Part shown: one piece after another, positions 46,785 through 63,658 of the stretch | Position numbering within the stretch: the stretch's first letter is position 1 | Layout of the letters: every line of letters starts with the position of its first letter | Source: a virus | Lineage: Duplodnaviria > Heunggongvirae > Uroviricota > Caudoviricetes | IMG/VR virus record: IMGVR_UViG_2799112923_000002 | Coordinates: 1 to 64,000 of that record | DNA length: 64,000 nt | Reading direction: 5' to 3' (one strand) | Made by a program: the position numbers and the translations under genes | Notes under the pieces: generated by a model | Databases searched by the model: none | Seen by the model: only the letters and a program-made list of their open reading frames with translations | What the model was told of the DNA's origin: nothing

Positions 46785-46788
46785 TTTT

Positions 46789-46931: not shown

Positions 46932-47002
46932 GTCGAGTTAGCAAAGCGGTTATGCACAAGTCTGCAAAACTTGGTACAATGGTTCGATTCCATTACTCGA
47001 CT
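46932..47002 (+). tRNA. tRNA-Cys (anticodon GCA), CCA encoded
   Basis: Perfect acceptor gtcgagt/actcgac, anticodon arm caagt-ctgcaaa-acttg, T-arm aatgg-ttcgatt-ccatt. Confidence 0.7.
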
Positions 47003-47033
47003 CCAACTACAGCATTTTTAAATTAATTAATTT

Positions 47034-48059: not shown

Positions 48060-48073
48060 TTACGCATAACAAA

Positions 48074-48112
48074 AAAGGGTTCTGGGAAAGCTGTAGTTCT
48101 CAGAACCCTAAT
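48074..48112 (+). terminator. Rho-independent terminator (gggttctg...cagaaccc)
   Basis: 8-bp perfect stem followed by taatttta. Confidence 0.55.
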
Positions 48113-48121
48113 TTTATTATT

Positions 48122-50251: not shown

Positions 50252-51531
50252 TGTGTGGTATTTTTGGAATCATCAATAGAAAACCTAGTAAGTTTGATTA
50301 TTCTACTTTTTGTACATTAGGTATAGCTAATGATATTAGAGGTGGAGATTCTTGCGGTATTTTTATTGATGGAAAAACTGAATATGGTATTGGTAAAGAA
50401 AAGTTTTTCGAAGATTTTTTCTTACAAAGTGAACTCTTAAACGATACCGAAAGAGCTACAATTGCTTTAGGACATTGTAGAAAAGCTTCTGTTGGAGCTA
50501 TTAATTTGGCTACAGCTCAACCGATTGTAATTCAGGATGAAAACAATAATACAAAATTTGTAGTCATTCATAATGGTACAATTTATAATTATAAAGAATT
50601 AGCTGAGAAGTATATTCCAGATATAGATATTACTGGATTAACCGATAGTCAAGTTATGGCTAGAATATTCTATTATAAAGGATATGATGTTTTATCCGAA
50701 TATAATGGAGGAAGTGTCTTTGTAATTGTAGATTATCGCACAGTTAAACCAAAGGTTTTATTCTTCAAAGGTGTTTCTAAGAAGTATGACACTTCTACAG
50801 AAGCAACAGAAGAAAGACCTCTTTATCTTTGTTTTTCTAAAGATAAATTAGTATTTTCATCAATTTATACATATTTGGCAGCATTATGTCCAGATATGGT
50901 AATTTATACAGGTAATGCTAATTCGTTAGCTCAGTATGAAGATGGAAAATTAATTAAAGTACGTCAATATGATAGGTCTAAGTGTGTACAACAGCGTACT
51001 TATCCTGAAACAAAAAGTACCGGTCTTTATGAAGAATATGCAGGATATTTGTCGTTCGCTCTTAAGAAATTTCGTTACAGTCTTGATGGCGGTAAAAAGA
51101 TTCCTGTTGGCCCATATTTCATAAACGAGTGGGGAGGTACATATAAAAATAAACCTACTTATACTGCTTCAACACAGTATTATTTCTTTCATGGAATTCC
51201 ATTCTTAGATAGAAGTCGTTACGATTATGTATGGGAACATTATACAAAGGCTAAAACATGTATGGAAGATTTTATAGCGGATAATGAAATTTTGATTAGA
51301 TTTCTTAGTTCGAATCCGTTTATATTTAAAGATAATCGTTTATTTACTATAAAAGATCCAGATCATGTAGAACCATATACAGGTAATTTTGTTCCAATAG
51401 GTGGATCTAGAAAGTCAAAGTATAATGAAGGTATATTTGTATGTGAAGTTTATGATTATTCGCGTACAAATTTTAATTATTCCATAAAAGATATTAATCT
51501 TAATTCACTTAATTCATTATGGAAACTATAG
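50251..51531 (+). CDS. Class II (Ntn) glutamine amidotransferase domain protein
   Basis: Starts MCGIFGI with Cys2 nucleophile, then DIRGGDSCGIF, as in PurF/AsnB/GlmS N-terminal domains. Confidence 0.65.
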   Translation: MCGIFGIINRKPSKFDYSTFCTLGIANDIRGGDSCGIFIDGKTEYGIGKEKFFEDFFLQSELLNDTERATIALGHCRKASVGAINLATAQPIVIQDENNNTKFVVIHNGTIYNYKELAEKYIPDIDITGLTDSQVMARIFYYKGYDVLSEYNGGSVFVIVDYRTVKPKVLFFKGVSKKYDTSTEATEERPLYLCFSKDKLVFSSIYTYLAALCPDMVIYTGNANSLAQYEDGKLIKVRQYDRSKCVQQRTYPETKSTGLYEEYAGYLSFALKKFRYSLDGGKKIPVGPYFINEWGGTYKNKPTYTASTQYYFFHGIPFLDRSRYDYVWEHYTKAKTCMEDFIADNEILIRFLSSNPFIFKDNRLFTIKDPDHVEPYTGNFVPIGGSRKSKYNEGIFVCEVYDYSRTNFNYSIKDINLNSLNSLWKL

Positions 51532-52739
51532 ATGGAATTACAGGAAAAGTAATTCATAATCGTGTATTTCGATATATAGCTGAAGTAGTAAATGGGATTT
51601 TAATTTACGGAAATACTAGTAAAGTCGAGGAATTACGTAGTGTTATAGTTGTTGCTGAAGGTAGAAAAACTTCAGCATTTTGTGATCCTAAGTCAGTTAA
51701 AAATATTACATGGAGTCCTTTTCTAGGAGATTATGTTTTAATTGTCGATGATCATTGTCCAGATGCAACACATGTAAAATACGGATTAAATCCTGATTTA
51801 TATCCTTATACATTTCAGAAAAAATATGAAGCTGTACAACATTTTAATTTGTTTAAAGATAAGCAAGTTAAAATAGAAGATTATGATTTTCCAATTGCAA
51901 AGTATGTAACACGTACAATAGGTATTGAGTTTGAAACATCTTTAGGTGCTATTTCTGAAGAAGATTGTTTAAAATATGGACTTATTCCATTAAGAGATGG
52001 ATCTATTAGTGGTGTAGAATATTCAACTGTTATTTTACAAGGTAATTCTGGATTTAATTTACTCAAAAAACAATTAGATTTATTAAGACAGAATACATTC
52101 TTTAATAAAGATTGTTCTTTACATATTCATTTTGGTGATTATCCATTAGATCCAAAATTAATTTATAAACTGCAAGCCTTGTTATATAACATTCAAAATG
52201 AAATTCAATGTTATATTCCAAGATATTCCTTTTATACAGAAAAATATAAGAGTAATGGTAAAGCATATTGTAAACCACTTGCATCTTATAGTAGCTTTTC
52301 TGATTTCTTCGTAGCGTTAACAGGAACTCCGTTCTTAGGAAGTTTTACTCAACCTCATCCAAATGACATTACAAGAGATCATAAATGGAATGTTCCAACT
52401 AGATATTATTGGTGTAATTTCATAAATCTCTTATGTTATAATGTTAACAAAACTGTTGAATTCAGATTTTTGCGTCCGACTTATAATCTTGAGAAGATTT
52501 TAACTTGGATTTACATTCTCAACGGATTTTTGGAATATGCTTCGCGTGGATTAAGAACGCTTCGAGTTGATATTAGAACTGTATTATCTACGGTTTATCC
52601 TAAAGAAGTTTTTGAATTTTTATGTGTACAGTTAGATAAATTAACTTGTCTTAGGGACATGCAATGTCACAATTTAGATTACATTGGTGAGGACATTACT
52701 CTTGAGAACAGATTGTTTGATGATAATAAAATTATTTAA
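51519..52739 (+). CDS. Amidoligase (GCS2-like), copy 2 (406 aa)
   Basis: TIGIEFETSLG ... CSLHIHFGDY signature blocks parallel to 49457..50251. Confidence 0.45.
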   Translation: METIDGITGKVIHNRVFRYIAEVVNGILIYGNTSKVEELRSVIVVAEGRKTSAFCDPKSVKNITWSPFLGDYVLIVDDHCPDATHVKYGLNPDLYPYTFQKKYEAVQHFNLFKDKQVKIEDYDFPIAKYVTRTIGIEFETSLGAISEEDCLKYGLIPLRDGSISGVEYSTVILQGNSGFNLLKKQLDLLRQNTFFNKDCSLHIHFGDYPLDPKLIYKLQALLYNIQNEIQCYIPRYSFYTEKYKSNGKAYCKPLASYSSFSDFFVALTGTPFLGSFTQPHPNDITRDHKWNVPTRYYWCNFINLLCYNVNKTVEFRFLRPTYNLEKILTWIYILNGFLEYASRGLRTLRVDIRTVLSTVYPKEVFEFLCVQLDKLTCLRDMQCHNLDYIGEDITLENRLFDDNKII

Positions 52740-52761
52740 TATGTACTGATTTTGATAATAT

Positions 52762-52809
52762 AGCGCATCGTTTTGGTACTTTAAAAGGTTCGAATCCTTT
52801 GATGCGCTC
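52762..52809 (+). ncRNA. 47-nt tRNA minihelix-like element (7-bp acceptor stem + T-arm, no D or anticodon arms)
   Basis: agcgcat cgttttggtacttt aaagg-ttcgaat-ccttt g atgcgct c. Confidence 0.4.
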
Positions 52810-53099
52810 TAATTAATTTAAATAAATATGAAAAAAATATTATATCTTATCGGATTGTTTTTAGCAGCACTAATTATTGGTGGTTCTGTAATACTTATAA
52901 ATATAAATAATAAGAAAGAACAGAAAAATACTGAGTATTATAATGTAATATATTATAATTATGATGTTTCATTAGAATATCATGATGTAACTGATTTACA
53001 TTATGATACTATAGGTATTTATTTTAAAACACAAGATGGAGCTACCGTCATTTTAAATGGTGGAGCGATTGAAATTATACCATTAGATGTAGATTAAAT

Positions 53100-53714
53100 A
53101 TGATAACAAAATTTAGTGGAAATAATTTATTTTTCACATCGGATACACATTTTGGACATCAACATATTATTAAATTATGTAAACGTCCTTTTAATACAAT
53201 AGAGGAACACGATCAAAAGTTAATTGAGAATTGGAATTCTGTTGTAGGACTTGAAGATACAGTATTTCATCTTGGCGATTTTGGTTTTGGAGGAACACAA
53301 AAATGGAAAGAGATTCGTAATCAATTAAATGGACATATAATTCTTATCTTGGGAAATCATGATATGAAAAATGCATCTCAAGGTGCGTTAGATTTATTTG
53401 ATTATGCATCACAGCAAATGAAAATTCAAATAGACGACAGAACAGTTTATTTGAATCATTTTCCATTTTTAACATATGCCCATTGGAATCCTGAAGTATT
53501 TTCTCGTGAGTCCTTAGCGTTTGCTCTTTCTGGTCATACACATATTCGTAAAGGTGATACTGGATTTGATGCACAATTTACTTCTTTATATAAACCTACA
53601 CAGTACGATGTAGGTGTTGATTTTAATGAATACAAACCTATCGCTTGGAAAGAAATAAATAGACGTATTCAATATCAGTTAGATCATCATTGTAATTTGA
53701 CTAATTGGATGTAA
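53100..53714 (+). CDS. Calcineurin-like metallophosphoesterase
   Basis: TSDTHFGH ... LGDF ... GNHD ... GHTH motifs. Confidence 0.65.
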   Translation: MITKFSGNNLFFTSDTHFGHQHIIKLCKRPFNTIEEHDQKLIENWNSVVGLEDTVFHLGDFGFGGTQKWKEIRNQLNGHIILILGNHDMKNASQGALDLFDYASQQMKIQIDDRTVYLNHFPFLTYAHWNPEVFSRESLAFALSGHTHIRKGDTGFDAQFTSLYKPTQYDVGVDFNEYKPIAWKEINRRIQYQLDHHCNLTNWM

Positions 53715-53715
53715 T

Positions 53716-54126
53716 ATGACACAGGAAGAAAAACAACTGGTCTTACTTGACCTCAGTGCAAGATTATCTTGTGGTGTAATATGTAAAACACCAAAAGGTG
53801 ACGGTCATCTTTGTTCTATCAATCAAACTATCTTTGGGACCGAATATGGTATAAACATAAATTCCATCAAAAGGGACTACTTTAATGATAGTGAAGTTGA
53901 AGAACAAGTTGTCAAGCCCTATCTCCGTCCCTTATCAGATATGACTAAGGAAGAGTTGGATGAATGTAGAAATACTTGCAAATACCGTCAAATAGGTCAA
54001 TCTATTCTTAGTTGTGCTACTACAAAAACATTTGATTTTCTAATTACCCACCACATTGATTTCAGAGGATTGATTTATATGAGGTTGGCCTTAGAAGCAC
54101 CTAAAGGGATGTATAAAATTGAATAG
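53716..54126 (+). CDS. Hypothetical protein, member of a three-gene paralog family (with 54351..54722 and 54709..55095)
   Basis: Shared N-terminus MT(Q/H)EEKQL(V/L)L.DL.ARL and C-terminus RGLI.M.LALEA..GMY. Confidence 0.45.
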   Translation: MTQEEKQLVLLDLSARLSCGVICKTPKGDGHLCSINQTIFGTEYGININSIKRDYFNDSEVEEQVVKPYLRPLSDMTKEELDECRNTCKYRQIGQSILSCATTKTFDFLITHHIDFRGLIYMRLALEAPKGMYKIE

Positions 54127-54350
54127 AATATGGAAACACAGAAAATAAAGGGGTGGCTTGTACGAGACAAGGATGACTTCACTGCGGTCTATGGTGTTAA
54201 ACCAGTAAGGGGTAAGACCGAATGGGTTGACGGCAACCACCCGAAATCCCCCCGTGACTCAAGCTGCGTCCTGTCCTTTGTTGAATACATGTTCCCAGAC
54301 CTTAAGTTTGAGGACGAACCCATTGAAATTGAAATCACAATCAAACCAGT

Positions 54351-54722
54351 ATGACACACGAAGAAAAACAACTCTTATTGAAAGACCTTTGTGCAAGGTT
54401 GCCTTATGGGGTAAAAATTTTGGATATACCTGCCAATGTGGTTGGAGAGCTTTTCCTTGTTAGTACTACCGACACTGTTGAATACGAAACCAACGATGAT
54501 ACTGGAGTTCAAACATTGTGCAATATAAAGCCTTATCTCCGTCCGATGTCAAGTATGACTGAAGAAGAATTGGAAGAGTTTCACAATTATACAAATGTTG
54601 ACCCTATTTCATGGCTTCATTATGCTATTGATTGGCTCAACGAACACCACTTTGACTATCGTGGTTTGATCGAAATGGGATTAGCACTGGAAGCAAAGGA
54701 GGGAATGTATGAAAAGGAATAA
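54351..54722 (+). CDS. Paralog family member 2
   Basis: As above. Confidence 0.45.
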   Translation: MTHEEKQLLLKDLCARLPYGVKILDIPANVVGELFLVSTTDTVEYETNDDTGVQTLCNIKPYLRPMSSMTEEELEEFHNYTNVDPISWLHYAIDWLNEHHFDYRGLIEMGLALEAKEGMYEKE

Positions 54723-55095
54723 AACAGATGTACAAGACAGTGATATATCTACTATTTTATCTAGTCTTGGTTTTAAGAATATTACAGAAGAACGGCCAAT
54801 TCGTTTAATCGATGCTCTTCCTTATTCGTTTAACGATATATTTGATGTGCATAGTAGATGGATAAGAAAGTCTCAAGATAATATCTTTTCTGAAGTATTA
54901 GTTGGATTAACTTTTAATGGTAGATTTATAGACATCATTGTTTTAAGTGTCTGTGGTGAATGTAAAAGTCGAGCGTCTGAGCACATATACTGTATGAATT
55001 TTGAATGGGAGGGTTTCTTGAAAAAGTTTATCTCGCTTAATGAACAATGCGTTATTAGACTTGCTCTTGAAGCATCGAAGGATATGTATAGATAA
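54709..55095 (+). CDS. Paralog family member 3 (C-terminal motif only)
   Basis: C-terminal RLALEASKDMYR. Confidence 0.4.
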   Translation: MKRNKTDVQDSDISTILSSLGFKNITEERPIRLIDALPYSFNDIFDVHSRWIRKSQDNIFSEVLVGLTFNGRFIDIIVLSVCGECKSRASEHIYCMNFEWEGFLKKFISLNEQCVIRLALEASKDMYR

Positions 55096-55101
55096 AATAT
55101 T

Positions 55102-55422
55102 ATGAAGGCAAAAATATTCAAATTCCGTATTATTGAAAAATGTCGCCCTTGTTTGAATTATGATACAGAATTAATTACTAAAAACCGTTACTATTATTTA
55201 TACATAAAAGTTCCTTGGTATCTTGGTTTTTGGCAAGAAATTTATCCGTCTGCATGTAATGAATTAGGATACTTTGTTTCTGTAGAAGAAGCTAAAAGAA
55301 AGGCGCATAATTATGTAAAAAATTATGTTTTAAGTCAAAAAGAGAACGAAATTTATAAGAAGCATAAAAAGGAACTCAAAGTTACTACAGAAATTGTATT
55401 AGAATTTCAAATAACTTCTTAA
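55102..55422 (+). CDS. Hypothetical protein (106 aa)
   Basis: ORF. Confidence 0.4.
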   Translation: MKAKIFKFRIIEKCRPCLNYDTELITKNRYYYLYIKVPWYLGFWQEIYPSACNELGYFVSVEEAKRKAHNYVKNYVLSQKENEIYKKHKKELKVTTEIVLEFQITS

Positions 55423-55423
55423 T

Positions 55424-55867
55424 ATGATTACCGAAGATTATGTAAGTTTTGAAACTGCAAAACTCTTGAAAGAAAAGGGGTTTTATGGTGAGTGCTTTAG
55501 TATGTATCTTACACCCAAACCTCATTCGGGAATGGGAGATCCAAATGAAGCAAAGATTGCTCCACACGGTAGGGATAGTTATTACTACGAAGGTTATAGA
55601 TATCAATGCGAAGCCCCAACCATCCAAATGGCTATAAAATGGCTCACGGAAGCATATAATATTTTTATTTCTCCACAAATTGAAGTCAGTCGTAATGAAG
55701 AAGAAACGGGTATCCATCAATATGGACAACCAGGATATTATGTGATTATCACCTATGTCTTGAATGGAAATATATTACCTTATCAAGGAAGTCTTTATCC
55801 TACGCCAGAAGAAGCTTGTGAGACAGCCATTAAGTATTGTCTTGAAAATCTGATTTTAAAGTTATAA
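55424..55867 (+). CDS. Hypothetical protein (147 aa)
   Basis: ORF. Confidence 0.45.
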   Translation: MITEDYVSFETAKLLKEKGFYGECFSMYLTPKPHSGMGDPNEAKIAPHGRDSYYYEGYRYQCEAPTIQMAIKWLTEAYNIFISPQIEVSRNEEETGIHQYGQPGYYVIITYVLNGNILPYQGSLYPTPEEACETAIKYCLENLILKL

Positions 55868-56217
55868 AAAATATTAATTTTTTTATTATATTTGTATGAA
55901 CTTTTCATCTTTTCCTAAATCATCTTTAATTGCATATATCAAATATTTTAAAATGATATTAACTTATAAAGAAAATAAAAATGTAATTTCATTTTTAGAA
56001 GATTGTGAGAAGGAATTGAGTAAAAGAGAATAATTTTCGATATTTTAAAAACGATAACAATAATCGTACATCGAGGTTTAAAAGACTGAGCCTTATCAGA
56101 AATGTTTAAAACCCCTCCGTAGTATAATCTGTAAAACAGAGGACGTAAGCCGAGACAACGGAAAAAAGGGCTATATTAAGAGTAGAAACCTGAGCCCTTG
56201 CGCCTAAAGTGCAGAAC

Positions 56218-56265
56218 GACCTGTATATCAAAGTATAAAGCAGAATCAACCTGTATATCAAAGGG
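56218..56265. repeat. Direct repeat aacctgtatatcaaag (2 copies, about 32 bp apart) inside an ORF-free, moderately GC-rich segment
   Basis: gacctgtatatcaaag ... aacctgtatatcaaag. Confidence 0.5.
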
Positions 56266-56409
56266 TTAGGCAACAGCCCACGGTGTAATAACCAAGGAGT
56301 GCAGTAGACTACTAAACGTTTAAGCGGCATGTATGGGACTGGGTAGACCATACTCCGTAATTATTGTAAATCGGACGTAACATCAGACCGCGTAAGAGTC
56401 TGGTTTTAA

Positions 56410-56498
56410 CTCCCAGTGGTGGAATTAGGTAGACACCTATGACTTAGGATCATATGCGAAGTAATAGTAGCGTGCAGGTTCGATTCCTGCCTGGGAGA
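56410..56498 (+). tRNA. tRNA-Leu (anticodon TAG), long variable arm
   Basis: Acceptor ctcccag/ctgggag, Leu-type D-arm tggtggaattaggtagacac, anticodon arm tatga-cttagga-tcata, T-arm tgcagg-ttcgatt-cctgc. Confidence 0.65.
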
Positions 56499-56513
56499 CA
56501 AATAACTAATAAT

Positions 56514-57134
56514 ATGAAAATAATAGATAATTTTGATCTCTTTCGTGAGAAAATGAATTGGAATTCTCCAGATGAATTCTATTTCGTACAAATACTTATT
56601 AGAAGAAAAGATGGACATATAGAACCAGGAGTAAATGGGAATAATATGAATAGATTGATTAAATTTTATACTATTGGATCGTTAACCGATTTAGATAAAT
56701 ATGAAAACGAGATAAAATCTATTTGTGACGCCATTAATGGGAGAGCATATGTCCATCCTACTAAAAGAAGTTTTAATAACGTTGCAGATGAATGTTTACG
56801 TATAACTACGGATATCTATCTCTCTAAAACAAATAATGTTGGATTAAAAGCTGCTTATTCTACAGCTTGTGGTAAATCATTTATAAATTCAGACAAAAAA
56901 TATGTAATAGATTTAGATGATGATGCTGTAAATCAAAAAGCGGAAATAATTGAATTTATAGAATATCATTGTGAACCATTTAATTGTGTAAAATTTCAAT
57001 ATGAAGTTCCAACTGCACATGGTATTCATTTAATTACAACAAAATTCAATCGCGATAAATTTTGTGAACATTTTCCTAATATAGATGTTCATGCAAATAA
57101 TCCAACACTTCTGTATTTTAAGTGTTTAGAATAA
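56514..57134 (+). CDS. Hypothetical protein (206 aa; starts after tRNA-Leu)
   Basis: Internal Met MKIIDNFDLF of the listed ORF 56454..57134. Confidence 0.45.
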   Translation: MKIIDNFDLFREKMNWNSPDEFYFVQILIRRKDGHIEPGVNGNNMNRLIKFYTIGSLTDLDKYENEIKSICDAINGRAYVHPTKRSFNNVADECLRITTDIYLSKTNNVGLKAAYSTACGKSFINSDKKYVIDLDDDAVNQKAEIIEFIEYHCEPFNCVKFQYEVPTAHGIHLITTKFNRDKFCEHFPNIDVHANNPTLLYFKCLE

Positions 57135-57573
57135 CATCTCCTAAAAATAAGGCACTTACAATATTAAAAAATGATAACGATCATTATTACAAAAATTAAC
57201 TAACAACTCTATGCTGGTCATAGCGTGCGACACGCGTTAGTTTCCGTATCCAAAATACGTTATTAGGTGGCTTGTAAGTAAAAGTAACTTTCAGTGCCTT
57301 TATAGATTTTTTAACCTATTTTATTAAATCAAATGCCAAAGGTATCTGATTACGAACTTGAACATTGGTCTGAAAAAAGTGAAACTAATTTTCAGAAGGT
57401 TCGAAGCAAAAAGCCTAAATCTATAAAAGAACCAAAATATCCTGAGAAAAAGAGAAATCGGGAAAAGAAAGTTGATTTTTGAGATTTAGAAGAAAAAGAA
57501 TTTTAAAATTTAATGATACATACAATATTATTTTTTGCTCCATATTTTGCGAAAATAGATGTATCATAACATG

Positions 57574-57644
57574 GTGTTCCTAGATAAAGGTTAGTCGGCA
57601 GGTTTGTGGCACCTGAAATTCCAGTTCGATTCTGGAGGAACACA
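57574..57644 (+). tRNA. tRNA-His (anticodon GTG) with extra 5' G(-1) at 57573
   Basis: Perfect acceptor gtgttcc/ggaacac, anticodon arm caggt-ttgtggc-acctg, T-arm tccag-ttcgatt-ctgga, encoded CCA. Confidence 0.65.
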
Positions 57645-58131
57645 CCAATCTTTAAATTAAGATAATATGTTAAAAAAATTATTAGATATATTTAAAACAA
57701 AAGATGTCAAAAATTCAATAATTCTAAAAGAATTAAAAGATGCAGATCTTTTTGATACTATTTGGATTGTTGATAAATCTGGAACAATTTATGAAGGTTG
57801 GATTTATGATAAAACCAGAAAGCATATTATTGTTACTGTGCCTGTAGAACAGGGTGAATATCAAGATTATAGATTTATTATAAGTAAATCAAATAGATTT
57901 GATACAACAATAGAACAAAATCATAATATTTTACATTTTAATAAACCATGTTAGCTGGAGAAATTGTATACTTTCCATATAAAGATGGATTTGTAAGATA
58001 CAAAATTAGGAAAATTATGGACGATGATTTATTAGTTCTCACATATAAAAGTAATATTTCGAATTGCATTCCAATATCAGAAGTTTTAACTACTGAACAA
58101 TTTGCAAAAACATATAAAAATGAAATAATTT

Positions 58132-59262
58132 ATGAGTAGATTTGAAAAGTATTATATCACTCCGGCTATAAAAACATATGTAGATCATAGAGAGGAGTGT
58201 ATTCCTTATTACGATGCTTTTTATTCTGAAGAAGCTGGTGGATGGATTTTAGCAGGCGCATCTCTTCCAATTTTTGTTGCACCAATGGCGTGCATTATAG
58301 ACGATAATAACTGGAAAAAGTTTGATTCTGAAGGACTTAATGTAATTATTCCAAGAACTGTTGATTTTGAGAAAAGACTTAAACTTGCAAATGAGCAATT
58401 ACTTTGGATTGCTGTTGGATTGGATGAATTAGAAAAAATCTATAATTTATCTAATATTGAAGAAATGTATGTTTGTTTGGATATAGCAAATGGACATATG
58501 GCAAGTGCACTAGATTTATGCAGTAAAGTAAAAGAAAAATTTGGAAATAGAGTTACTTTAATGTTTGGAAATATTGCAAATGCTGATACATATTTGGAAT
58601 ATGCTAAAGCAGGAATTGATTATTGCCGTGTTGGAATTGGTGATGGTCAAGCTTGTTTAACCAACACTCTTACAGGTATTTCTCAAGATTTTCCAAAAAT
58701 AATTAAAGACCTTAATTACAGAAAGCAACGTGTTGCATCAAGTGGAGCTTTCTATAAAAGCGTTCCTAAAATTGTTATCGACGGTGGTATGTCTTCTATA
58801 CGTGATATAGTTATCGCTTTAGCAATGGGTGCTGATTATGTAATGTGTGGTAAGATTTTCGCTCAATGTGAAGAAGCTGCTGGTGAAATTGTTTCAAAAC
58901 TTATTGAAACAGTTGAACAATTTAAAAGGCACACTACCGAATTAAGAGATTATCCTTTTGATGAAGATTCAGAAGATGTCGATGGATCAGCTAAAACATA
59001 TCCTGTTTTGTTTGATAGTAAACAGTTTGTTTATCAACGTGGCAGAATGTATTACGGTATGTCAACTGAACGTGCTCAGAAAGAGATGGGAAACAAAAGA
59101 ATTAAACCCGCAGAAGGTAAAGAATATTGGATTCCTATTGAATATAAACTTAGTGAGTGGGTTCATCAGTTTGTGGCCGCAATAGCATCTACCATGAGTT
59201 ATTGCAACGTTACTCAACTTAAGGATTTTATCGGAAAAGTTACCATAAATAAATACGATTAA
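58132..59262 (+). CDS. GMP reductase / IMP dehydrogenase-family TIM-barrel enzyme
   Basis: VCLDIANGH ... VGIGDGQACLT ... IDGGMSSIRDIVIALAMGADYVMCG parallel the GuaC/GuaB active-site blocks. Confidence 0.6.
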   Translation: MSRFEKYYITPAIKTYVDHREECIPYYDAFYSEEAGGWILAGASLPIFVAPMACIIDDNNWKKFDSEGLNVIIPRTVDFEKRLKLANEQLLWIAVGLDELEKIYNLSNIEEMYVCLDIANGHMASALDLCSKVKEKFGNRVTLMFGNIANADTYLEYAKAGIDYCRVGIGDGQACLTNTLTGISQDFPKIIKDLNYRKQRVASSGAFYKSVPKIVIDGGMSSIRDIVIALAMGADYVMCGKIFAQCEEAAGEIVSKLIETVEQFKRHTTELRDYPFDEDSEDVDGSAKTYPVLFDSKQFVYQRGRMYYGMSTERAQKEMGNKRIKPAEGKEYWIPIEYKLSEWVHQFVAAIASTMSYCNVTQLKDFIGKVTINKYD

Positions 59263-59273
59263 AAATAAAAGAT

Positions 59274-59705
59274 ATGAAAATTACAAGAGCACAGAAAGAT
59301 GCAGTTCTTGATCTTCTTAGAGAAAAATTTGATGAGAAAGAATTTGAAGTTTTCAACAAATTTAAAGAAGATAACAAAAAGGATATTCAAACAAAGTATG
59401 CTAAATTAATTGAATGTTATAATAAACTACTTCAATTGAAAGCCGTTATTGGAGAAGAAATCAAAACGTTCAATGTTATTAGAAAGGCATTTGAGGAATT
59501 AGATTTTGATTATCACTTTAACGGTTCGGATGTAACCGGATATTATAAATCTGAAGATACGTTTATTGACGCCCTTTTAAAATTGAATTTTAAGAAACTA
59601 AAGCGTCCTGATTTTATTAAGGTGGAAAGACAGCTTGAACTAGACACATTAAGTAAAGATTTTAACTTAGATGCATTTATAGACAAATATCTTTCTGAAG
59701 AATAA
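59274..59705 (+). CDS. Hypothetical protein (143 aa)
   Basis: ORF. Confidence 0.45.
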   Translation: MKITRAQKDAVLDLLREKFDEKEFEVFNKFKEDNKKDIQTKYAKLIECYNKLLQLKAVIGEEIKTFNVIRKAFEELDFDYHFNGSDVTGYYKSEDTFIDALLKLNFKKLKRPDFIKVERQLELDTLSKDFNLDAFIDKYLSEE

Positions 59706-59767
59706 AAATTTGGAAATTTGAAAATTTTTTTGTAACTTTATATTCTGATACTTACAATCACAATACT

Positions 59768-59842
59768 GTGGGTTCGAGTCCCGCATTTGCTGCATTTTAG
59801 CGAATTGGTGTAAATGGTAGACACGAATGAATAGGGTTCATT
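59768..59842 (+). ncRNA. Candidate circularly permuted tRNA-like locus: 3' half (T-arm + acceptor 3' strand + GCA) precedes a 5' half (complementary acceptor 5' strand + Leu-like D-arm + anticodon-like arm with loop atagggt)
   Basis: gtggg-ttcgagt-cccgc atttgct g ca tttt agcgaat t ggtgtaaatggtagacac g aatga-atagggt-tcatt; atttgct pairs with agcgaat (6 WC + 1 GU); motif gatacttacaatc 15 nt upstream. Confidence 0.3.
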
Positions 59843-59870
59843 TTTATTAATAAGTATCAATAAGTGTATA

Positions 59871-59960
59871 GGAGCTTAGTGTAACGGTAGCACACAGGTC
59901 TTCAAAACCTGGGTAGCGGCGTCCAAAACCGCGGGTGTGGGTTCGAATCCTGCAGCTCCT
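59871..59960 (+). tRNA. Suppressor tRNA, anticodon TCA (decodes UGA), about 90 nt with long variable arm; candidate UGA-to-Trp decoder
   Basis: Acceptor ggagctt/cagctcc, anticodon arm caggt-cttcaaa-acctg (perfect 5 bp, anticodon 59902-59904), extra-arm hairpin gcgg-cgtccaaaa-ccgc, T-arm GGGTTCGAATCC. Confidence 0.65.
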
Positions 59961-60145
59961 GCAGTAAAATACAATTATTATGGAATTTATATTTATTTAT
60001 TCGATTCCTTGTATCATAAGTTTTTTGCTTATGAATCAATGTTACAAGAAAAATTTATTAGATTATCCAATGCTTTCTGCATTAAGTTGTATTATTCCTT
60101 TTGTAAATTGGATTGGATTGGTATGTTTTATATGTAAATTAAAAA

Positions 60146-61732
60146 ATGATTAATGAATTAAAATTTGGGAATTATGCAAAAGAAGCTCTTCTTACAGGAA
60201 TGTCAAAAATTGCAGAAGCTGTTGGATCAACACTTGGCCCAAAAGGAAAATGTGTAATTATTGATAATTATTCTAATGGACTTCCTCATGTAACTAAAGA
60301 TGGAGTTACTGTTGCAAAAAATATATTCCTTGAAAATAAATTTGAAAACGTAGGTGCTACATTACTTAAACAAGCTGCATTAAATACTGTGCGTTCTGTA
60401 GGAGATGCGACAACATCTTCAACAGTTTTAGCTTATAAAATGACATCTAATGCTTTTAAAACAATTGATGGACATAATTTATCATTAATAAAGAAAGGTA
60501 TTAATACAGCAGCTGATTTTGTTAAGACCACCATACAAGGGTCATCGATCCCTGTAAAATGGGATGAATTAGAAAAAATTGCATCAATTTCTGCAAATAA
60601 TGATCAAGAAATAGGAAATATTGTTGCAGAAGCATTTAGAAAAGTTGGATTGGATGGAGTAATTACTGTAGAAGAATCTGCAAATAATCAGACATCTATC
60701 GAAATAATCAATGGTATGCAATTTGACAGAGGTTTTATATCTCATTGGTTTATTACAGATAAAGCTAAAGGAGAATGTGTTCTTGAAAATCCTTTAATTT
60801 TAATTACAGATCAAAAAGTACAACTAATTCGTGAGATTCTTCCTGCTGCAGAATATTGTGCAAAAAATGGAAGGGCAATGTTAATAATTGCTCAGGATTT
60901 TGACGATGAAGTAATTCAAAATTTACGATTAAACCATATTCAGGGAAACATTAAGTGCTGTTTGGTAAAAGCTCCTTCATTTGGAGATTATAGAAAATAT
61001 GTCTTAGATGATTTAGCTTTACTTACAAATGCAAAATTAGCAACTTATGACAATGGTATAGAGCTTCAAAAAGTCGATGGTTCTATGTTAGGATCTTGTG
61101 GAAAAGTTGTAATTACTAAAGATTCCACTACAATATTAAATGGCTCTGGACAAGCAGATCTTGTCAATCAAAGGGTTTCCGAAATTAAAACCTTATTATC
61201 CACTTTACAGAGTGGAGAAGAAACTTTGATCAAATTTCATAAAGAACGTATTGCACGTTTAGTTGGAGGAATATGTTCCATTAAAGTTGGAGCAAATTCT
61301 GAATTAGAAATGCGTGAAAAGAAAGATAGAGTCGACGATGCTGTATGTGCTACTAGAGCTGCTTGTGAAGAAGGTATTGTTCCTGGAGGAGGTATTACAT
61401 TTTTAAAAGCATTTTTAGAAATGCCTACATCCGATAATAAAGATGAAAATGTAGGAATCGATATTGTGAAATCATCCTTGACTTCTATATTTGACAAGAT
61501 TGTAGAAAATGCTGGATATAATCCAAAAGAAATTGGCAGAGAAGTTTATCCTGCTGATAATATATCTTGGAATGCAGATACAGAACAATATGAGAATTTT
61601 CTAGATTCTGGAATCGTTAATCCGGCTAAAGCAGATCGTTTAGCTTTTGAAAATGCAATAGACGTATTAAATATGTTTATATCTACTAATTGTATAATAA
61701 CTGAAAAAGACATATTTAAAGAAATTAAGTAA
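60146..61732 (+). CDS. groEL: GroEL-like group I chaperonin (528 aa)
   Basis: Alignable by eye to GroEL: KFGNYAKEALLTGMSKIAEAVGSTLGPKGKCVII...LPHVTKDGVTVAKNIFLENKFENVGATLLKQAA...GDATTSSTVLA. Confidence 0.8.
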   Translation: MINELKFGNYAKEALLTGMSKIAEAVGSTLGPKGKCVIIDNYSNGLPHVTKDGVTVAKNIFLENKFENVGATLLKQAALNTVRSVGDATTSSTVLAYKMTSNAFKTIDGHNLSLIKKGINTAADFVKTTIQGSSIPVKWDELEKIASISANNDQEIGNIVAEAFRKVGLDGVITVEESANNQTSIEIINGMQFDRGFISHWFITDKAKGECVLENPLILITDQKVQLIREILPAAEYCAKNGRAMLIIAQDFDDEVIQNLRLNHIQGNIKCCLVKAPSFGDYRKYVLDDLALLTNAKLATYDNGIELQKVDGSMLGSCGKVVITKDSTTILNGSGQADLVNQRVSEIKTLLSTLQSGEETLIKFHKERIARLVGGICSIKVGANSELEMREKKDRVDDAVCATRAACEEGIVPGGGITFLKAFLEMPTSDNKDENVGIDIVKSSLTSIFDKIVENAGYNPKEIGREVYPADNISWNADTEQYENFLDSGIVNPAKADRLAFENAIDVLNMFISTNCIITEKDIFKEIK

Positions 61733-61733
61733 A

Positions 61734-61994
61734 ATGAAAACTATTATTAATCTTCCAGCAAGATACGGATATAACCATATATTAAAATATATTGGCGATA
61801 ATCTATGGCAATTCGAAGCAGATCCAAAAAGTACAGGAACATTTAGGGTTATTGGATTTGAAGGAGAATATCATGTTGGAATTAACTGTTCATCATTTGA
61901 TCCAGAAGGTGGACCTTTTATGTCTGTTGGAGATACAATTGATGGAAAGGTAATTAAATCTATTACAAGTTCTGGTATATTTGAATTAGAATAG
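61734..61994 (+). CDS. Hypothetical protein (86 aa) downstream of groEL; not recognisably GroES
   Basis: ORF; lacks the GroES mobile-loop signature. Confidence 0.4.
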   Translation: MKTIINLPARYGYNHILKYIGDNLWQFEADPKSTGTFRVIGFEGEYHVGINCSSFDPEGGPFMSVGDTIDGKVIKSITSSGIFELE

Positions 61995-61996
61995 TT

Positions 61997-62389
61997 ATGA
62001 AATTTATATTTAGTCTAATTATCTTACTTATCTCTGGAGTAATAATTGGACAAGAACGACAAAAATCACACGGCATTGTTGGAGTGCGATCTGTAACATT
62101 ATTAATGTTAGGTTCGTTCGTATTTGCATATATGTCTGATAAAATTGGAGGAGATCCTGCACGAATAGTAGCACAAGTAGTATCTGGTGTTGGTTTTATT
62201 GGTGCAGGATTAATATTTAAAAAAGATTCAGATAAAATTGCAAATATTACTACTGCTATTTTAATGTGGTGTCTTGCATCAGTTGGATGCTTAATTGGAT
62301 TAGGATTTATAATTGAAAGTATTGTTATAGTTTTGATTATATATCTTGTATTAAAATATTATAAAAATTTATTTACAGATGGGAGTTAA
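61997..62389 (+). CDS. MgtC/SapB-family membrane protein
   Basis: Hydrophobic 130-aa protein with GQERQKSHGIVGVRS...VSGVGFIGAGLIFKK...AILMWCLASVGCLIGLG pattern typical of MgtC. Confidence 0.5.
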   Translation: MKFIFSLIILLISGVIIGQERQKSHGIVGVRSVTLLMLGSFVFAYMSDKIGGDPARIVAQVVSGVGFIGAGLIFKKDSDKIANITTAILMWCLASVGCLIGLGFIIESIVIVLIIYLVLKYYKNLFTDGS

Positions 62390-62732
62390 ATATTATTATT
62401 CCGCCCCTACACAGATTCGGTGCGGATATTTTATTGCAGATGCAGAAGGTAAATGGCTTAATGATCTTCCCATTAAGTCAGAGTTAGTGAAAAACCTTCC
62501 TAGAGTTGTTGTATGTAGTGTTCTTGAAGGAAAAACCCTTTCTTTCGGATTTGCTACATGTTCTTCAAAAGAACAATATTCAAAGAAGAGAGGTCAAAGA
62601 ATTTCTTACGCTCGTGCAATCGGAAAACCTTATAAGGTTGTCGAGTTAGAAGATATTAAGACAATTCATGACGTTTCTGCACAAACAGTTGCCGAGATTT
62701 TTGCTTTGGAAACTGAAAGAATTTATAAATAA
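62379..62732 (+). CDS. Hypothetical protein (117 aa)
   Basis: ORF. Confidence 0.45.
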   Translation: MGVKYYYSAPTQIRCGYFIADAEGKWLNDLPIKSELVKNLPRVVVCSVLEGKTLSFGFATCSSKEQYSKKRGQRISYARAIGKPYKVVELEDIKTIHDVSAQTVAEIFALETERIYK

Positions 62733-62882
62733 TGTTTCATGTAATATTGCAAGGTTGAATCGAAACAGATGATAAAGATTTTGCCAAAAAATTAGAAGAT
62801 TTCATAATTAAATCTGATAGTAAACATATTGGAAAAACAAATATTTATGAAATTTCTACAATTTCTAAAATAGATTCAAAAG

Positions 62883-63284
62883 ATGATTAAAATTGAAAAA
62901 ATAACAATTCCTATTTATAATCAATGAGTTTATTTCATTCTTGGAGATCCTTATGAAGTTCAAGATTATTTGGCAGATGCTTATAGAGATCGTTTTGATT
63001 TTGATCCAGGAGTAACAAATGCAGTAACATTACACAAAGGATTAACTACTTGGATTTGGTTTGATACAGAAACTGTTACCGTTCCAGTAATTGTTCATGA
63101 GTTAGGTCATGCAGTATTTGATTTAATGATTGATTTAGGTTTAGAATTAACAGATCAAGAAGCGTTTTGTTATTTGGACGAGTTTTTAATGGAAAAATGC
63201 GTAAATTTATATGCTATACAGATGGGTCCTATCAATCTAGTAGAGGATCATCTGGACAAGGAGGATGAGCAAGCATCATCTTAG
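62883..63284 (+). CDS. Zinc metallopeptidase-like protein (HExxH), 133 aa, one TGA=Trp
   Basis: Extended upstream of the listed ORF 62970..63284 to the ATG at 62883 through a TGA; VIVHELGHAVFDL motif. Confidence 0.45.
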
Positions 63285-63658
63285 ATGAAAACGAGAATGT
63301 AATAGTCAAACTTTATCAAGGAATGACTAATACAACAAATAATAGAATGGAATTACGTGCTGTTCTTGAAACGTTAAAATATTTTGAAGAACCTGTAGAA
63401 TTAACAATTATTTCCGATTCACAATATGTGATTGGAGGAATCAACGGTGCTGCTAAAAAATGAATAGAAAATTCTGATCTAACTAAGAAAAATTTAGACC
63501 TTTGGTTTCAAATCGTTGAACTATTAGAGAAACACAAAGTTACAATGATTTGAACCAAAGGTCATATTGGCAATAAATGAAACGAAGAAGCTGATCGTTT
63601 ATGTGTATTTGCTGCACAATGTTATAATTTACCAAAAGATGTATGAACTATAGAATAA
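63197..63658 (+). CDS. rnhA: Ribonuclease HI (153 aa, four TGA=Trp), start overlaps the metallopeptidase gene in another frame
   Basis: Manual translation MRKFICYTDGSYQSSRGSSGQGGWASIILDENENVIVKLYQGMTNTTNNRMELRAVLETLKYFEEPVELTIISDSQYVIGGINGAAKKWIENSDLTKKNLDLWFQIVELLEKHKVTMIWTKGHIGNKWNEEADRLCVFAA; the Trp positions coincide with the conserved Trp of E. coli RNase HI (KQWIHNW, IKWEWVKGH). Confidence 0.75.

What the first reader, a model, noticed from the sequence alone, without database searches (positions are those of the whole stretch)
59871..59960. TGA-to-Trp recoding across the window, with a phage-borne UCA-anticodon tRNA
Conserved enzymes read correctly only if TGA is sense. The amidase_3 endolysin (2687-3352) has five TGA, RNase HI (63197-63658) four, the HNH endonuclease (1213-1962) one, and the big minus-strand virion genes dozens. 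In RNase HI the TGA codons fall exactly on the conserved Trp positions of the E. coli enzyme, so TGA = Trp (code-4-like) rather than Gly (code 25). TGG is also used for Trp, and TAA/TAG are stops. The UCA-anticodon tRNA at 59871-59960 has a long variable arm, which points to a Ser/Leu/Tyr/Sec-type ancestor, not tRNA-Trp(CCA). A cell-wall-less Mollicute host is unlikely because the element encodes peptidoglycan hydrolases. More likely this is a recoded phage in a standard-code, probably Bacteroidota-type, host. Early genes such as the intron endonuclease and RNase H also carry TGA, so the suppressor must act from the start of infection.
Basis: partly seen in the sequence, partly recalled or inferred. 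Interest (0 to 1): 0.7.

Follow-up and report, generated by a model that had tools for sequence, protein, structure and literature searches.

The report
Suppressor tRNA carrying a spare Trp anticodon arm
This large phage, probably of Bacteroidota, reads the stop codon TGA as tryptophan in most of its genes (a known trick), but its UGA-reading tRNA is a tryptophan tRNA whose extra arm is a conserved copy of the normal Trp anticodon arm (CCA), which may be how the host enzyme still loads it with tryptophan.

Summary
A tRNA with anticodon UCA lies at 59870-59961 (Rfam tRNA model, 56 bits). TGA is a sense codon in the lysis and tail block at 1-24.6 kb (82 TGA against 53 TGG) and in RNase H. TGA means Trp. 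In the amidase, the TGA codons fall on columns where 120 of 120 homologues have W. Six of six TGA codons in two paralogues align with TGG in their relatives.

First, the tRNA is not of Ser/Leu/Tyr/Sec type. Its core is 74% identical to E. coli tRNA-Trp and it has A1-U72 and G73. Its "long variable arm" is a second anticodon-arm-like hairpin with a 7-nt loop GUCCAAA that carries the Trp anticodon CCA. Second, the suppressor need not act from the start of infection. A 35.5-kb block (27.4-62.9 kb) that holds nearly all the tRNA genes has no internal TGA in 9,197 codons.

TGA-to-Trp recoding with a phage tRNA is already published. The CCA-loop hairpin is not described in any paper I could search. 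It is in 43 of 45 long-arm non-Sec tRNA(UCA) genes from viral contigs and in 74 of 74 from metagenomes, and its stem covaries strongly. My best guess, not shown here, is that it offers TrpRS the CCA identity element that the anticodon has lost.

The parts
59870..59961 (+). tRNA with anticodon UCA (opal suppressor of Trp type), 92 nt up to the discriminator G73. CCA is not encoded in the gene.
   Evidence: ARAGORN. Rfam RF00005, 56 bits. Core 74% identical to E. coli tRNA-Trp, whose sequence was verified against annotated trpT in 5426 genomes.
59895..59911 (+). Anticodon arm CAGGU-CUUCAAA-ACCUG, with anticodon UCA at 59902-59904. Apart from U34, the loop is the same as that of tRNA-Trp (CUCCAAA).
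59916..59932 (+). Variable-arm hairpin GCGG(C)-GUCCAAA-(A)CCGC. It has a 7-nt loop with U-CCA-A in the anticodon positions; CCA is at 59923-59925. This is a second, Trp-anticodon-arm-like hairpin.
   Evidence: Sequence. Alignment with L001, whose hairpin CCGGU-CUCCAAA-ACCGG equals the E. coli tRNA-Trp anticodon arm. Stem covariation across 37 distinct hairpins. Independent RNAalifold five-helix consensus. Coordinates.
27390..62900 (+). Block compatible with the standard code. It holds the tRNA array (nearly all tRNA genes called in the window, including both suppressor tRNAs), amidoligase/GATase genes, an IMPDH-like gene and a GroEL-like chaperonin. It has no internal TGA.
   Evidence: 0 TGA in 9,197 codons under code 11; coverage 0.78 against 0.82 under code 4. 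for the annotations.
1..24600 (.). Recoded block. It comprises a lysis cassette (Rz-like spanin 621-1022, amidase 2687-3352, small membrane proteins) with an HNH endonuclease, and the minus-strand tail genes. TGA is sense here (82 TGA, 53 TGG).
2687..3352 (+). Amidase_3 endolysin with 5 in-frame TGA and no TGG.
   Evidence: Pfam. W at the TGA columns in homologues.
9362..13390 (-). Large tail protein of 1342 codons with 21 TGA and 20 TGG.
4125..9351 (-). Three repeat-protein paralogues (4125-5081, 5088-6749, 7564-9351), plus an unrelated ORF at 6819-7499 that lies between them. TGA in the first two aligns with TGG in the others. The third has 0 TGA.
63197..63658 (+). RNase H with 5 in-frame TGA. 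It marks the start of a second recoded region to the right of the standard-code block.
   Evidence: Ortholog and recoded replication genes in L001.
48848..48853 (+). TGATAA tandem stop at the end of a gene in the standard-code block. The same arrangement occurs at 43106-43111 and 49465-49470. If TGA is suppressed, only one residue is added before TAA.

Best explanation
The window comes from a large phage that uses two codes. Relatives are about 175 kb, and the host is probably a member of the Bacteroidota.

A 35.5-kb block in standard code carries the tRNA genes, including a tRNA with anticodon UCA. Once that tRNA is made, UGA is read as Trp in the recoded modules. These are the lysis genes, the tail genes and RNase H. 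In the closest relative the DNA polymerase and a helicase are recoded as well.

The tRNA is a tRNA-Trp derivative with A1-U72, G73, a Trp-like D arm, T arm and anticodon loop, and C34 changed to U. Its 'variable arm' is a duplicate of the tRNA-Trp anticodon arm that has kept the CCA triplet in a 7-nt loop.

The following are shown: the codon meaning, the block structure, the Trp ancestry of the tRNA, and selection on the hairpin (the UCCA loop is kept while the stem covaries).

The following is inferred. The hairpin offers the host tryptophanyl-tRNA synthetase the C34-C35-A36 identity element that the real anticodon has partly lost. That would let a standard-code TrpRS load the suppressor efficiently and specifically with Trp, without a phage-encoded TrpRS. 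TrpRS, like its relative TyrRS, is known from published structures (recalled, not tested here) to approach tRNA from the variable-arm side. That makes such a contact geometrically conceivable.
For: The tRNA is real and reads UGA.

TGA means Trp. Relative L001 has the same synteny, with the tRNA(UCA) in a TGA-free stretch and recoded RNase H, DNA polymerase and helicase.

Trp ancestry rests on three results:
- Core identity is 74% to E. coli tRNA-Trp against 51-58% to the window's Ser, Leu and Tyr tRNAs.
- BLAST of the 3' half (hairpin to 3' end) hits annotated tRNA-Trp genes from their anticodon arm onward in about 25 phage records, and the 5' part hits tRNA-Trp of Bacillus phages.
- G73 is present in all 43 of the long-arm non-Sec tRNAs that were parsed.

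The hairpin is under selection:
- In a viral-contig scan that did not specify the variable region, 43 of 45 distinct non-Sec long-arm tRNA(UCA) genes have UCCA in the hairpin loop. None of 20 tRNA-Sec-like genes and 2 of 64 other class II tRNAs from the same loci do (Fisher P = 3e-29).
- In a metagenome scan anchored only on the D arm and the UCA arm, 74 of 74 parseable sequences carry the arm, and none has a short variable loop.
- The stem is 93% paired, all 5 pairs show compensatory changes, and the covariation score is 0.985 against 0.255 in shuffles (0 of 500 shuffles reach it).
- RNAalifold predicts the fifth helix independently.

Over half of the 37 distinct hairpins have G at loop position 32 and two have U at 37. 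Both are unusual for a loop that decodes (my own knowledge). That fits a recognition element rather than a second working anticodon.

Bacterial Trp identity elements are G73, A1-U72 and C34/C35/A36 (PMC9976931). No ORF of TrpRS size in the window matched TrpRS or RF1. The Borges et al. preprint names the charging of suppressor tRNAs by host synthetases as an open question. In E. coli extract, 13 of 13 phage tRNA(UCA) tested inserted Trp (PMC12636597).
Against: No experiment or structural model here shows that TrpRS touches the hairpin.

E. coli TrpRS already charges ordinary UCA suppressors (cited). Short-arm tRNA(UCA) genes also exist in phages (16 loci, plus L002). A mimic is therefore not strictly required.

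A long arm together with G73 are also serine identity features (PMC9976931), so some Ser insertion cannot be ruled out from sequence alone.

The tRNAs compared may all descend from one duplication event, so the counts are not independent events.

Only 64 kb of the genome is visible. A TrpRS or RF1 gene could lie elsewhere.

The timing of expression of the blocks is inferred from codon usage, not measured.
Confidence: 0.5

Rival explanations
1. The hairpin is selected for a partner other than TrpRS. Possibilities include better A-site binding or competition with release factor 2 on the ribosome, a handle for a phage or host modification or processing enzyme, tRNA stability, or a decoy for a host nuclease that targets the tRNA-Trp anticodon loop. 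The tRNA would then be charged through G73, A1-U72 and C35-A36 alone.
For: The conservation and covariation show selection but not its cause. Ordinary tRNA(UCA) genes without the arm exist in phages, and E. coli TrpRS accepts UCA suppressors (literature quoted). U33 of the hairpin loop is as invariant as CCA, and it is not a listed TrpRS determinant.
Against: What is kept is exactly the Trp anticodon triplet in anticodon-loop geometry. It is kept on tRNAs with quite different D arms and acceptor stems. That is hard to explain by a partner unrelated to Trp identity. No candidate partner gene was found next to the tRNA.
Confidence: 0.27
2. The tRNA has two working anticodon arms. The five-way junction can present either the UCA arm or the CCA arm to the ribosome, so one molecule decodes UGA and UGG in two conformations. 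Alternatively, the CCA hairpin is the true anticodon arm and the UCA arm is the insertion.
For: In many members both hairpins are perfect 5-bp/7-nt anticodon arms, each followed by a 4-5-nt linker, as after a 22-nt tandem duplication. The CCA hairpin has the canonical 3' connection to the T arm and the UCA arm has the canonical 5' connection to the D arm. ARAGORN and Rfam can only model an insertion in the variable region, so their choice of arm is partly built in. The window has no separate tRNA-Trp(CCA).
Against: Over half of the 37 distinct hairpins have G32 and two have U37, which are poor features for a decoding loop (my knowledge). Many phages with this tRNA carry an ordinary tRNA-Trp(CCA) right next to it, so a second CCA decoder is not needed. 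U34 can already read UGG by wobble, as in code-4 organisms (established knowledge).
Confidence: 0.1
3. The tRNA is a Ser- or Sec-type class II tRNA, charged by SerRS. UGA would then be read as Ser (or Sec), and Trp at those positions would come from another decoder.
For: ARAGORN labels it SeC. It has a long extra arm and G73, which are serine identity features (PMC9976931).
Against: TGA falls on invariant Trp columns. The acceptor and T stems are 7/5 and the D stem is 4 bp. The Rfam tRNA model, not the tRNA-Sec model, is the reported clan winner. The core is most similar to tRNA-Trp and least similar to the window's Ser, Leu and Tyr tRNAs. True tRNA-Sec-like genes found by the same scan form a separate group without the CCA loop.
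Confidence: 0.03
4. The host itself uses code 4 (for example a Mollicute or another TGA = Trp bacterium). The phage would simply follow its host, with no switch of code during infection.
For: TGA = Trp is the code of such hosts, and tRNA-Trp(UCA) is their normal decoder (established knowledge).
Against: A 35.5-kb block avoids TGA completely although it uses 125 TGG, and six of its genes end in TGA. The phage has a peptidoglycan amidase. Its relatives are Bacteroides phages and Bacteroidota genomes.
Confidence: 0.03

Closest known systems
Stop-codon-recoded gut and rumen phages with TGA read as Trp and a phage suppressor tRNA (Borges et al. preprint 10.1101/2021.08.26.457843; Mgcod preprint 10.1101/2022.06.29.495998)
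   Same: In-frame TGA in lysis and structural genes, a standard-code block, a tRNA(UCA) gene in the standard-code part, low G+C, and a host predicted to use the standard code.
   Different: Here, and in relative L001, replication genes (RNase H, DNA polymerase, helicase) are recoded too. In the cases figured by Borges et al. they were in standard code. Those papers do not describe the structure of the suppressor tRNA.
Zeta crAss-like phage Lera (PMC12386605)
   Same: About 26 tRNA genes, including both SUP-TCA and SUP-CTA. TGA = Trp in many genes. TAG is not recoded and is followed closely by TAA. This is the same pattern as in the window.
   Different: The window is not detectably related at DNA level to any record in the phage collection. 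Its chaperonin points to large Bacteroides phages of the SJC03/DAC16 type rather than crAss-like phages. I could not check whether Lera's tRNA has the CCA hairpin.
Bacterial tRNA-Trp(CCA) and tRNA-Trp(UCA) of code-4 bacteria
   Same: A1-U72, G73, D-arm and T-arm sequences, and the anticodon loop CU-NCA-AA.
   Different: These are class I tRNAs with a 5-nt variable loop. The window tRNA carries a 25-nt variable region that contains a second anticodon-arm copy.
Class II tRNAs (Ser, Leu, Tyr, Sec) and allo-tRNAs with unusual cloverleaves (PMC5389517)
   Same: A long extra arm between the anticodon arm and the T arm. Some allo-tRNAs also bear stop anticodons.
   Different: In class II tRNAs the arm's loop sequence is not conserved, and it is not an anticodon copy: 2 of 64 contain UCCA in the same loci. 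Allo-tRNAs have 8/4 or 9/3 acceptor/T stems and Ser or Leu identity. This tRNA is 7/5 with Trp features.
Phage TrpRS:tRNA-Trp(UCA) 'code change' pairs (AP1 and HF2; PMC12636597)
   Same: A phage-borne tRNA(UCA) that inserts Trp at UGA. AP1 has a G73 discriminator.
   Different: Those phages bring their own TrpRS. No TrpRS was found in this window, and the tRNA may instead carry its own recognition aid. That paper set aside predicted tRNAs longer than 100 nt as low confidence and does not mention a variable-arm hairpin.

Membership tests
TGA-to-Trp recoded phage with mixed coding (code 4 in part of the genome) | Conserved genes are intact only if TGA is sense | tested here: met
   ORF coverage of 1-24.6 kb is 0.87 with code 4 against 0.52 with code 11. 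Amidase_3, RNase H, the tail protein and HNH are all interrupted by TGA.
TGA-to-Trp recoded phage with mixed coding (code 4 in part of the genome) | TGA aligns with Trp in homologues, not with Gly | tested here: met
   Amidase TGA columns hold W in 120/120, 120/120, 71/120, 37/120 and 26/120 homologues, with no G among the commonest residues. Paralogues give 6 of 6.
TGA-to-Trp recoded phage with mixed coding (code 4 in part of the genome) | Phage-encoded suppressor tRNA with anticodon UCA | tested here: met
TGA-to-Trp recoded phage with mixed coding (code 4 in part of the genome) | A genome block in standard code, with TGA absent or used as a stop | tested here: met
   27.39-62.9 kb has 0 internal TGA in 9,197 codons, and 6 genes end in TGA, three of them as TGATAA.
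TGA-to-Trp recoded phage with mixed coding (code 4 in part of the genome) | The host uses the standard code | tested here: inconclusive
   Only indirect evidence: relatives are Bacteroides phages and Bacteroidota genomes, and there is a standard-code block. No CRISPR or prophage link was tested.
TGA-to-Trp recoded phage with mixed coding (code 4 in part of the genome) | Recoding confined to late (structural and lysis) genes, as in the published model | tested here: not met
   RNase H is recoded here. In L001 the DNA polymerase (8 TGA) and a helicase (3 TGA) are recoded.
Bacterial-type tRNA-Trp | Discriminator G73 and first pair A1-U72 | tested here: met
   AGGAGCU...AGCUCCU-G. Determinants as listed in PMC9976931.
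Bacterial-type tRNA-Trp | Overall sequence closest to tRNA-Trp | tested here: met
   74% to E. coli tRNA-Trp and 71-75% to phage tRNA-Trp(CCA), against 65% or less to all other tRNAs of the window. BLAST hits are to annotated tRNA-Trp only.
Bacterial-type tRNA-Trp | Anticodon CCA at positions 34-36 | tested here: not met
   The anticodon arm has UCA. CCA is present only in the loop of the variable-arm hairpin.
Bacterial-type tRNA-Trp | Class I architecture with a 4-5-nt variable loop | tested here: not met
   The variable region is 25 nt and contains a hairpin of 4-5 bp with a 7-nt loop.
Bacterial-type tRNA-Trp | Charged with Trp by TrpRS | not testable with these tools
   Inferred from Trp at TGA positions. 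Needs an aminoacylation assay or mass spectrometry.
tRNA-Sec | 13-bp acceptor plus T helix (8/5), a 6-bp D stem, and a match to the tRNA-Sec model | tested here: not met
   The stems are 7/5 with a 4-bp D stem. Rfam reports RF00005 as the clan's best match. Genuine Sec-like genes from the same scan form a separate group.
Class II tRNA-Ser/Leu/Tyr | Long variable arm, identity-specific discriminator (A73 for Leu and Tyr, G73 for Ser), and sequence kinship | tested here: not met
   The arm is present and G73 fits Ser. But identity to the window's Ser, Leu and Tyr tRNAs is the lowest of all (51-58%), and the codon evidence is for Trp.

The most novel reading that the evidence does not exclude
A whole class of phage opal-suppressor tRNAs carries a decoy copy of the Trp anticodon arm in the variable-arm position. 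The host TrpRS reads the decoy CCA while the ribosome reads the real UCA. Identity and decoding, which for tRNA-Trp normally share the same three bases, would thus be physically separated. This would explain how phages reassign UGA in a standard-code cell without bringing a synthetase. It would also be a natural design for engineering suppressor tRNAs.
Probability: 0.4. Interest if true: 0.85.

Novelty: new variant of a known kind. Interest (0 to 1): 0.62.

Why it matters
How a suppressor tRNA gets its amino acid in a host that uses the standard code is an acknowledged open question (Borges et al. preprint).

For tRNA-Trp the anticodon is both the decoder and a main identity mark. Changing it to UCA should therefore weaken charging. 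A conserved, covarying hairpin that keeps the CCA triplet elsewhere on the same molecule suggests a concrete answer. A few mutant tRNAs and one purified TrpRS would be enough to test it.

If the idea is right, it is a new way for identity and decoding to be separated on one tRNA. It would be useful for genetic-code engineering. It would also improve annotation, because these tRNAs are now labelled 'SeC' or set aside as low-confidence long tRNAs.

Tried and rejected
1. TAG recoding. A tRNA with anticodon CUA is present at 41394-41466, but every in-frame TAG sits at a C-terminus with a TAA shortly behind it. TAG is therefore a stop here.

2. TGA = Gly (code 25). Rejected by the homologue columns.

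3. A near-identical known phage. Megablast of 4000-24000 against 50,697 phage records found nothing. BLAST of the tRNA found only half-length hits.

4. An exact match to the window's own anticodon and hairpin sequence in viral contigs. None was found, so degenerate patterns were used instead.

5. The single-sequence minimum-free-energy fold. It does not give the cloverleaf and is no better than shuffled sequences (z = -0.31). This is common for tRNAs, so the structure rests on the covariance model and on covariation.

6. The amidase against solved structures by sequence. No hit.

7. Local code-4 signal around the related tRNA genes. It is mixed, because the tRNAs usually sit in the TGA-free part of the genome. 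It supports recoding in many loci but not all.

8. The supplement of PMC12636597, which should list tested tRNA(UCA) sequences. It is not held.

9. Six literature searches for a description of the CCA hairpin found none. The library covers only open-access papers and preprints, so this does not prove that no description exists.

10. One script failed when ViennaRNA was called. The energy of the hand-drawn cloverleaf was therefore not computed.
Full report
**1. What is at the coordinates**

ARAGORN finds 25 tRNA genes in the window. One lies at 59870-59962 on the + strand with anticodon TCA and is labelled 'tRNA-SeC'. The Rfam tRNA model matches 59870-59961 at 56 bits (gathering score 29, E = 2e-9). 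It aligns all 71 model positions and treats 22 nt as an insertion in the variable region. The tRNA-Sec model is not the clan's best match.

**2. TGA is a sense codon in part of the window, and it means Trp**

With TGA as sense, ATG-started ORFs cover 87% of 1-24.6 kb, against 52% under the standard code. That block holds 82 in-frame TGA and 53 TGG, and 19 of 25 genes carry TGA.

- The block contains a lysis cassette. It has an Rz-like spanin at 621-1022, Amidase_3 at 2687-3352 and small membrane proteins. An endonuclease VII/HNH gene sits at 1213-1962.
- It also contains the minus-strand tail genes.
- I masked the five TGA codons of the amidase as X and aligned 120 full-length homologues. Those columns hold W in 120/120, 120/120, 71/120 (otherwise Y or F), 37/120 and 26/120. 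Every W-rich column of the family is a TGA in the window, and the gene has no TGG.
- Three repeat-protein paralogues give an internal control. All six TGA codons of 4125-5081 and 5088-6749 align with TGG-encoded W in a paralogue.
- Glycine (code 25) is excluded.
There are five TGA, not four. Against solved RNase HI structures they align with W/Y, W, K/W and Y/E.
- TAG and TAA are stops. Every internal TAG lies at a C-terminus with a TAA a few codons behind it.

**3. The genome is split into coding blocks**

- The + strand block 27.39-62.9 kb carries nearly all the tRNA genes, including the UCA tRNA. It also has amidoligase and glutamine-amidotransferase genes, an IMPDH/GMP-reductase-like gene and a GroEL-like chaperonin.
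- Real genes in this block have no internal TGA: 0 in 9,197 codons, with 125 TGG. At the TGA share of the recoded block (61%), the chance of that is about 2e-51.
- Six genes there end in TGA. Three end as TGATAA (43106-43111, 48848-48853, 49465-49470). Read-through would therefore add a single residue.
- To the right of this block, RNase H (63197-63658) is recoded again.
- In the closest relative found, L001, the order is the same. L001 is a 177-kb viral contig with 72% chaperonin identity. Its tRNA(UCA) and chaperonin lie in a TGA-free stretch. Then come an RNase H ortholog (6 TGA), a DNA polymerase (phrog_1252, E = 4e-145, 8 TGA) and a Helicase_C protein (3 TGA).
- So the suppressor is needed by the time of replication, not only late. 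It need not act 'from the start', because the block that encodes it can be translated with the host's code.
- The HNH gene lies in the lysis cassette, so it is not evidence for early use.

**4. Host**

The chaperonin's best annotated matches are Bacteroides thetaiotaomicron phages SJC03 and DAC16-23 (43%, 167-179 kb). The amidase's relatives in bacterial genomes are a Bacteroidales MAG (61%) and Saprospiraceae. A Bacteroidota host is likely but not proven.

**5. What the tRNA is**

With the hairpin removed, the tRNA is 74% identical to E. coli tRNA-Trp. I verified that sequence against annotated trpT in 5426 genomes. The core is 71-75% identical to phage tRNA-Trp(CCA) genes and only 51-58% to the window's own Ser, Leu and Tyr tRNAs.

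- It has A1-U72, G2-C71, G5-C68 and G73, a 7-bp acceptor stem, a 4-bp D stem and the anticodon loop CU-UCA-AA. These are the bacterial Trp identity features except for C34 (PMC9976931).
- The 'variable arm' is GCGG(C)-GUCCAAA-(A)CCGC at 59916-59932. It is a hairpin the size of an anticodon arm, with U-CCA-A in the anticodon positions.
- In L001 the hairpin is CCGGU-CUCCAAA-ACCGG, letter for letter the anticodon arm of E. coli tRNA-Trp.
- BLAST against 50,697 phage genomes finds no full-length match. The segment from the hairpin to the 3' end matches annotated tRNA-Trp genes from their anticodon arm onward. The 5' part matches tRNA-Trp genes of Bacillus phages.
- The gene thus looks like a tRNA-Trp in which the unit 'anticodon arm plus variable loop' (about 22 nt) is present twice. 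The first copy is mutated to UCA.
- This could have arisen by a tandem duplication. It could also have arisen by a deletion between adjacent UCA and CCA paralogues, which are often neighbours in related phages.

**6. The hairpin is conserved and under selection**

- I scanned the viral contigs with a pattern that fixed only the UCA arm and the T arm and asked for a long gap. That gave 67 distinct sequences.
- Twenty are tRNA-Sec-like and none has UCCA in the arm.
- Forty-five are 7/5 tRNAs. Forty-two of these have G73; the three of the L076/L096/L121 group have U73. They carry several quite different D arms and acceptor stems. Forty-three have UCCA in the hairpin loop.
- Other class II tRNAs in the same loci have UCCA in the variable region in 2 of 64 cases. 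Fisher P = 3e-29.
- Across 37 distinct hairpins the 5-bp stem is 93% paired, and all five pairs show compensatory changes. The covariation score is 0.985 against 0.255 in shuffles, reached by 0 of 500 shuffles, and it collapses when the partner is slid by one column.
- RNAalifold predicts the fifth helix on its own.
- A metagenome scan anchored only on the D arm and the UCA arm gave 84 distinct sequences. All 74 that could be parsed have the long arm with UCCA, and none has a short variable loop.
- The loop keeps U33-C34-C35-A36 and mostly A37. Position 32 is G in over half of the hairpins and position 37 is U in two. To my knowledge these are poor features for a loop that decodes on the ribosome.
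- With the same anchors, short-arm tRNA(UCA) genes occur in 16 viral loci. The arm is therefore common but not universal among phage UGA suppressors.
- Caveat: the sequences are related, so counts are not independent events. The variation in the stems shows long divergence with the loop held fixed.

**7. How it most likely works**

Shown:
- A Trp-derived tRNA(UCA) is encoded in the standard-code block.
- UGA is read as Trp in the recoded genes.
- The tRNA carries a selected second hairpin that displays CCA.

Inferred: the hairpin supplies TrpRS with the anticodon identity element. For tRNA-Trp the anticodon bases are main identity determinants together with G73. Changing C34 to U, which is needed to read UGA, should therefore cost charging efficiency in a standard-code host. 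TrpRS and its relative TyrRS approach tRNA from the variable-arm side. Bacterial TyrRS grips the long arm of tRNA-Tyr. This comes from published structures as I recall them and was not tested here. A flexible arm of anticodon-arm length on that face could plausibly reach the anticodon-binding domain.

No ORF of TrpRS or RF1 size in the window matched those families. Borges et al. state that the charging of suppressor tRNAs by host enzymes is unresolved. Seki et al. found Trp inserted by 13 of 13 phage tRNA(UCA) tested in E. coli extract. They also found two phages that bring their own TrpRS.

Against the idea:
- There is no direct evidence of contact.
- E. coli TrpRS accepts ordinary UCA suppressors.
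- Short-arm versions exist.

Rivals are a different partner for the hairpin, a tRNA with two working anticodon arms, Ser or Sec identity, and a code-4 host. I weigh each in the rivals section.

**8. Comparison with what is known, and novelty**

The recoding itself, the standard-code block and the phage tRNA(UCA) are all published. So is the odd presence of an unused CUA suppressor with TAG followed by TAA (Borges et al. preprint; Mgcod; Zeta crAss-like phage Lera). On that level the finding is a new member of a known kind. One difference is that replication genes are recoded too.

The CCA-bearing variable arm is not mentioned in any of the papers I could search or read. No phage genome in the reference collection has a full-length match. 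Current tools label these genes SeC or '???'. I therefore rate the whole as a new variant of a known kind. The search covers only open-access literature.

**9. Verdict**

Interest is 0.62. The recoding is ordinary for this kind of phage. The tRNA architecture is unexpected and widespread, and it turns an open question into a simple experiment.

Noticed in passing
window 41394-41466 (+): A second suppressor tRNA, with anticodon CUA (ARAGORN 'Pyl'; Rfam tRNA 46 bits). By my reading of the sequence it has C rather than U at position 33. TAG is nevertheless used only as a stop in the window, usually with a TAA a few codons behind. The same unexplained pairing is reported for the Zeta crAss-like phage Lera (PMC12386605).
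   Followed up: partly
window 43106-43111, 48848-48853, 49465-49470: Three genes of the standard-code block end in the tandem stop TGATAA. At 48847-48850 the TGA is also part of an ATGA start/stop overlap. This looks like a safeguard against read-through once the suppressor is present.
   Followed up: partly
window 7564-9351 (-) compared with 4125-5081 and 5088-6749: Of three neighbouring repeat-protein paralogues in the recoded tail block, the longest has 0 TGA and 7 TGG, while its neighbours use TGA. This may reflect recent acquisition or a different expression time.
   Followed up: no
window 19347-20054 (+) and 20532-21161 (+): Two TGA-free + strand ORFs lie in a stretch of higher G+C (about 0.40) inside the minus-strand recoded block. 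They have no family match. ARAGORN's minus-strand 'tRNA-Ser(gga)' at 20730-20822 lies inside the second ORF and is not supported by Rfam, so it is probably a false call.
   Followed up: partly
window 31067-31143 (+) and 46383-46454 (+): ARAGORN reports a 'tRNA-???' with a two-base anticodon right after tRNA-Leu(UAA). Rfam alone finds a further tRNA at 46383-46454, which I read by eye as Thr (UGU).
   Followed up: no
window 59712-59792 (+): A weak tRNA-like match (16.8 bits, E = 1.2) lies just upstream of the UCA tRNA. The stretch 59800-59840 resembles a Trp-like D arm by eye. This may be the remains of a neighbouring tRNA gene. In related phages an ordinary tRNA-Trp(CCA) sits next to the UCA tRNA.
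   Followed up: partly
window 48847-52739 and 58129-61732 (+): A cluster of Peptidase_C26/GATase, phiEco32-like COOH-NH2 ligase, class II glutamine amidotransferase and Amidoligase_2 genes. Further on lie an IMPDH/GMP-reductase-like gene and a GroEL-like chaperonin. All are in the standard-code block.
   Followed up: no
L001 13491-20074: In the closest relative, the RNase H ortholog (6 TGA), a DNA polymerase (8 TGA) and a Helicase_C protein (3 TGA) are recoded. In this lineage the replication module depends on the suppressor.
   Followed up: yes
L076, L096, L121 (viral contigs): A separate tRNA(UCA) type with discriminator U73 has a long arm whose short loop reads AACCA or AUCCA. It lies in loci with very strong code-4 signal (ORF coverage 0.09-0.13 rising to 0.61-0.65). 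This may be an independent version of the same idea.
   Followed up: no
window 59879-59894 (D arm of the UCA tRNA): The D stem has U11-A24. In E. coli tRNA-Trp the pair is U11-G24, and the classical Hirsh UGA suppressor is the G24A change (from memory, not checked here). The phage tRNA family thus already has the suppressor-type pair.
   Followed up: no
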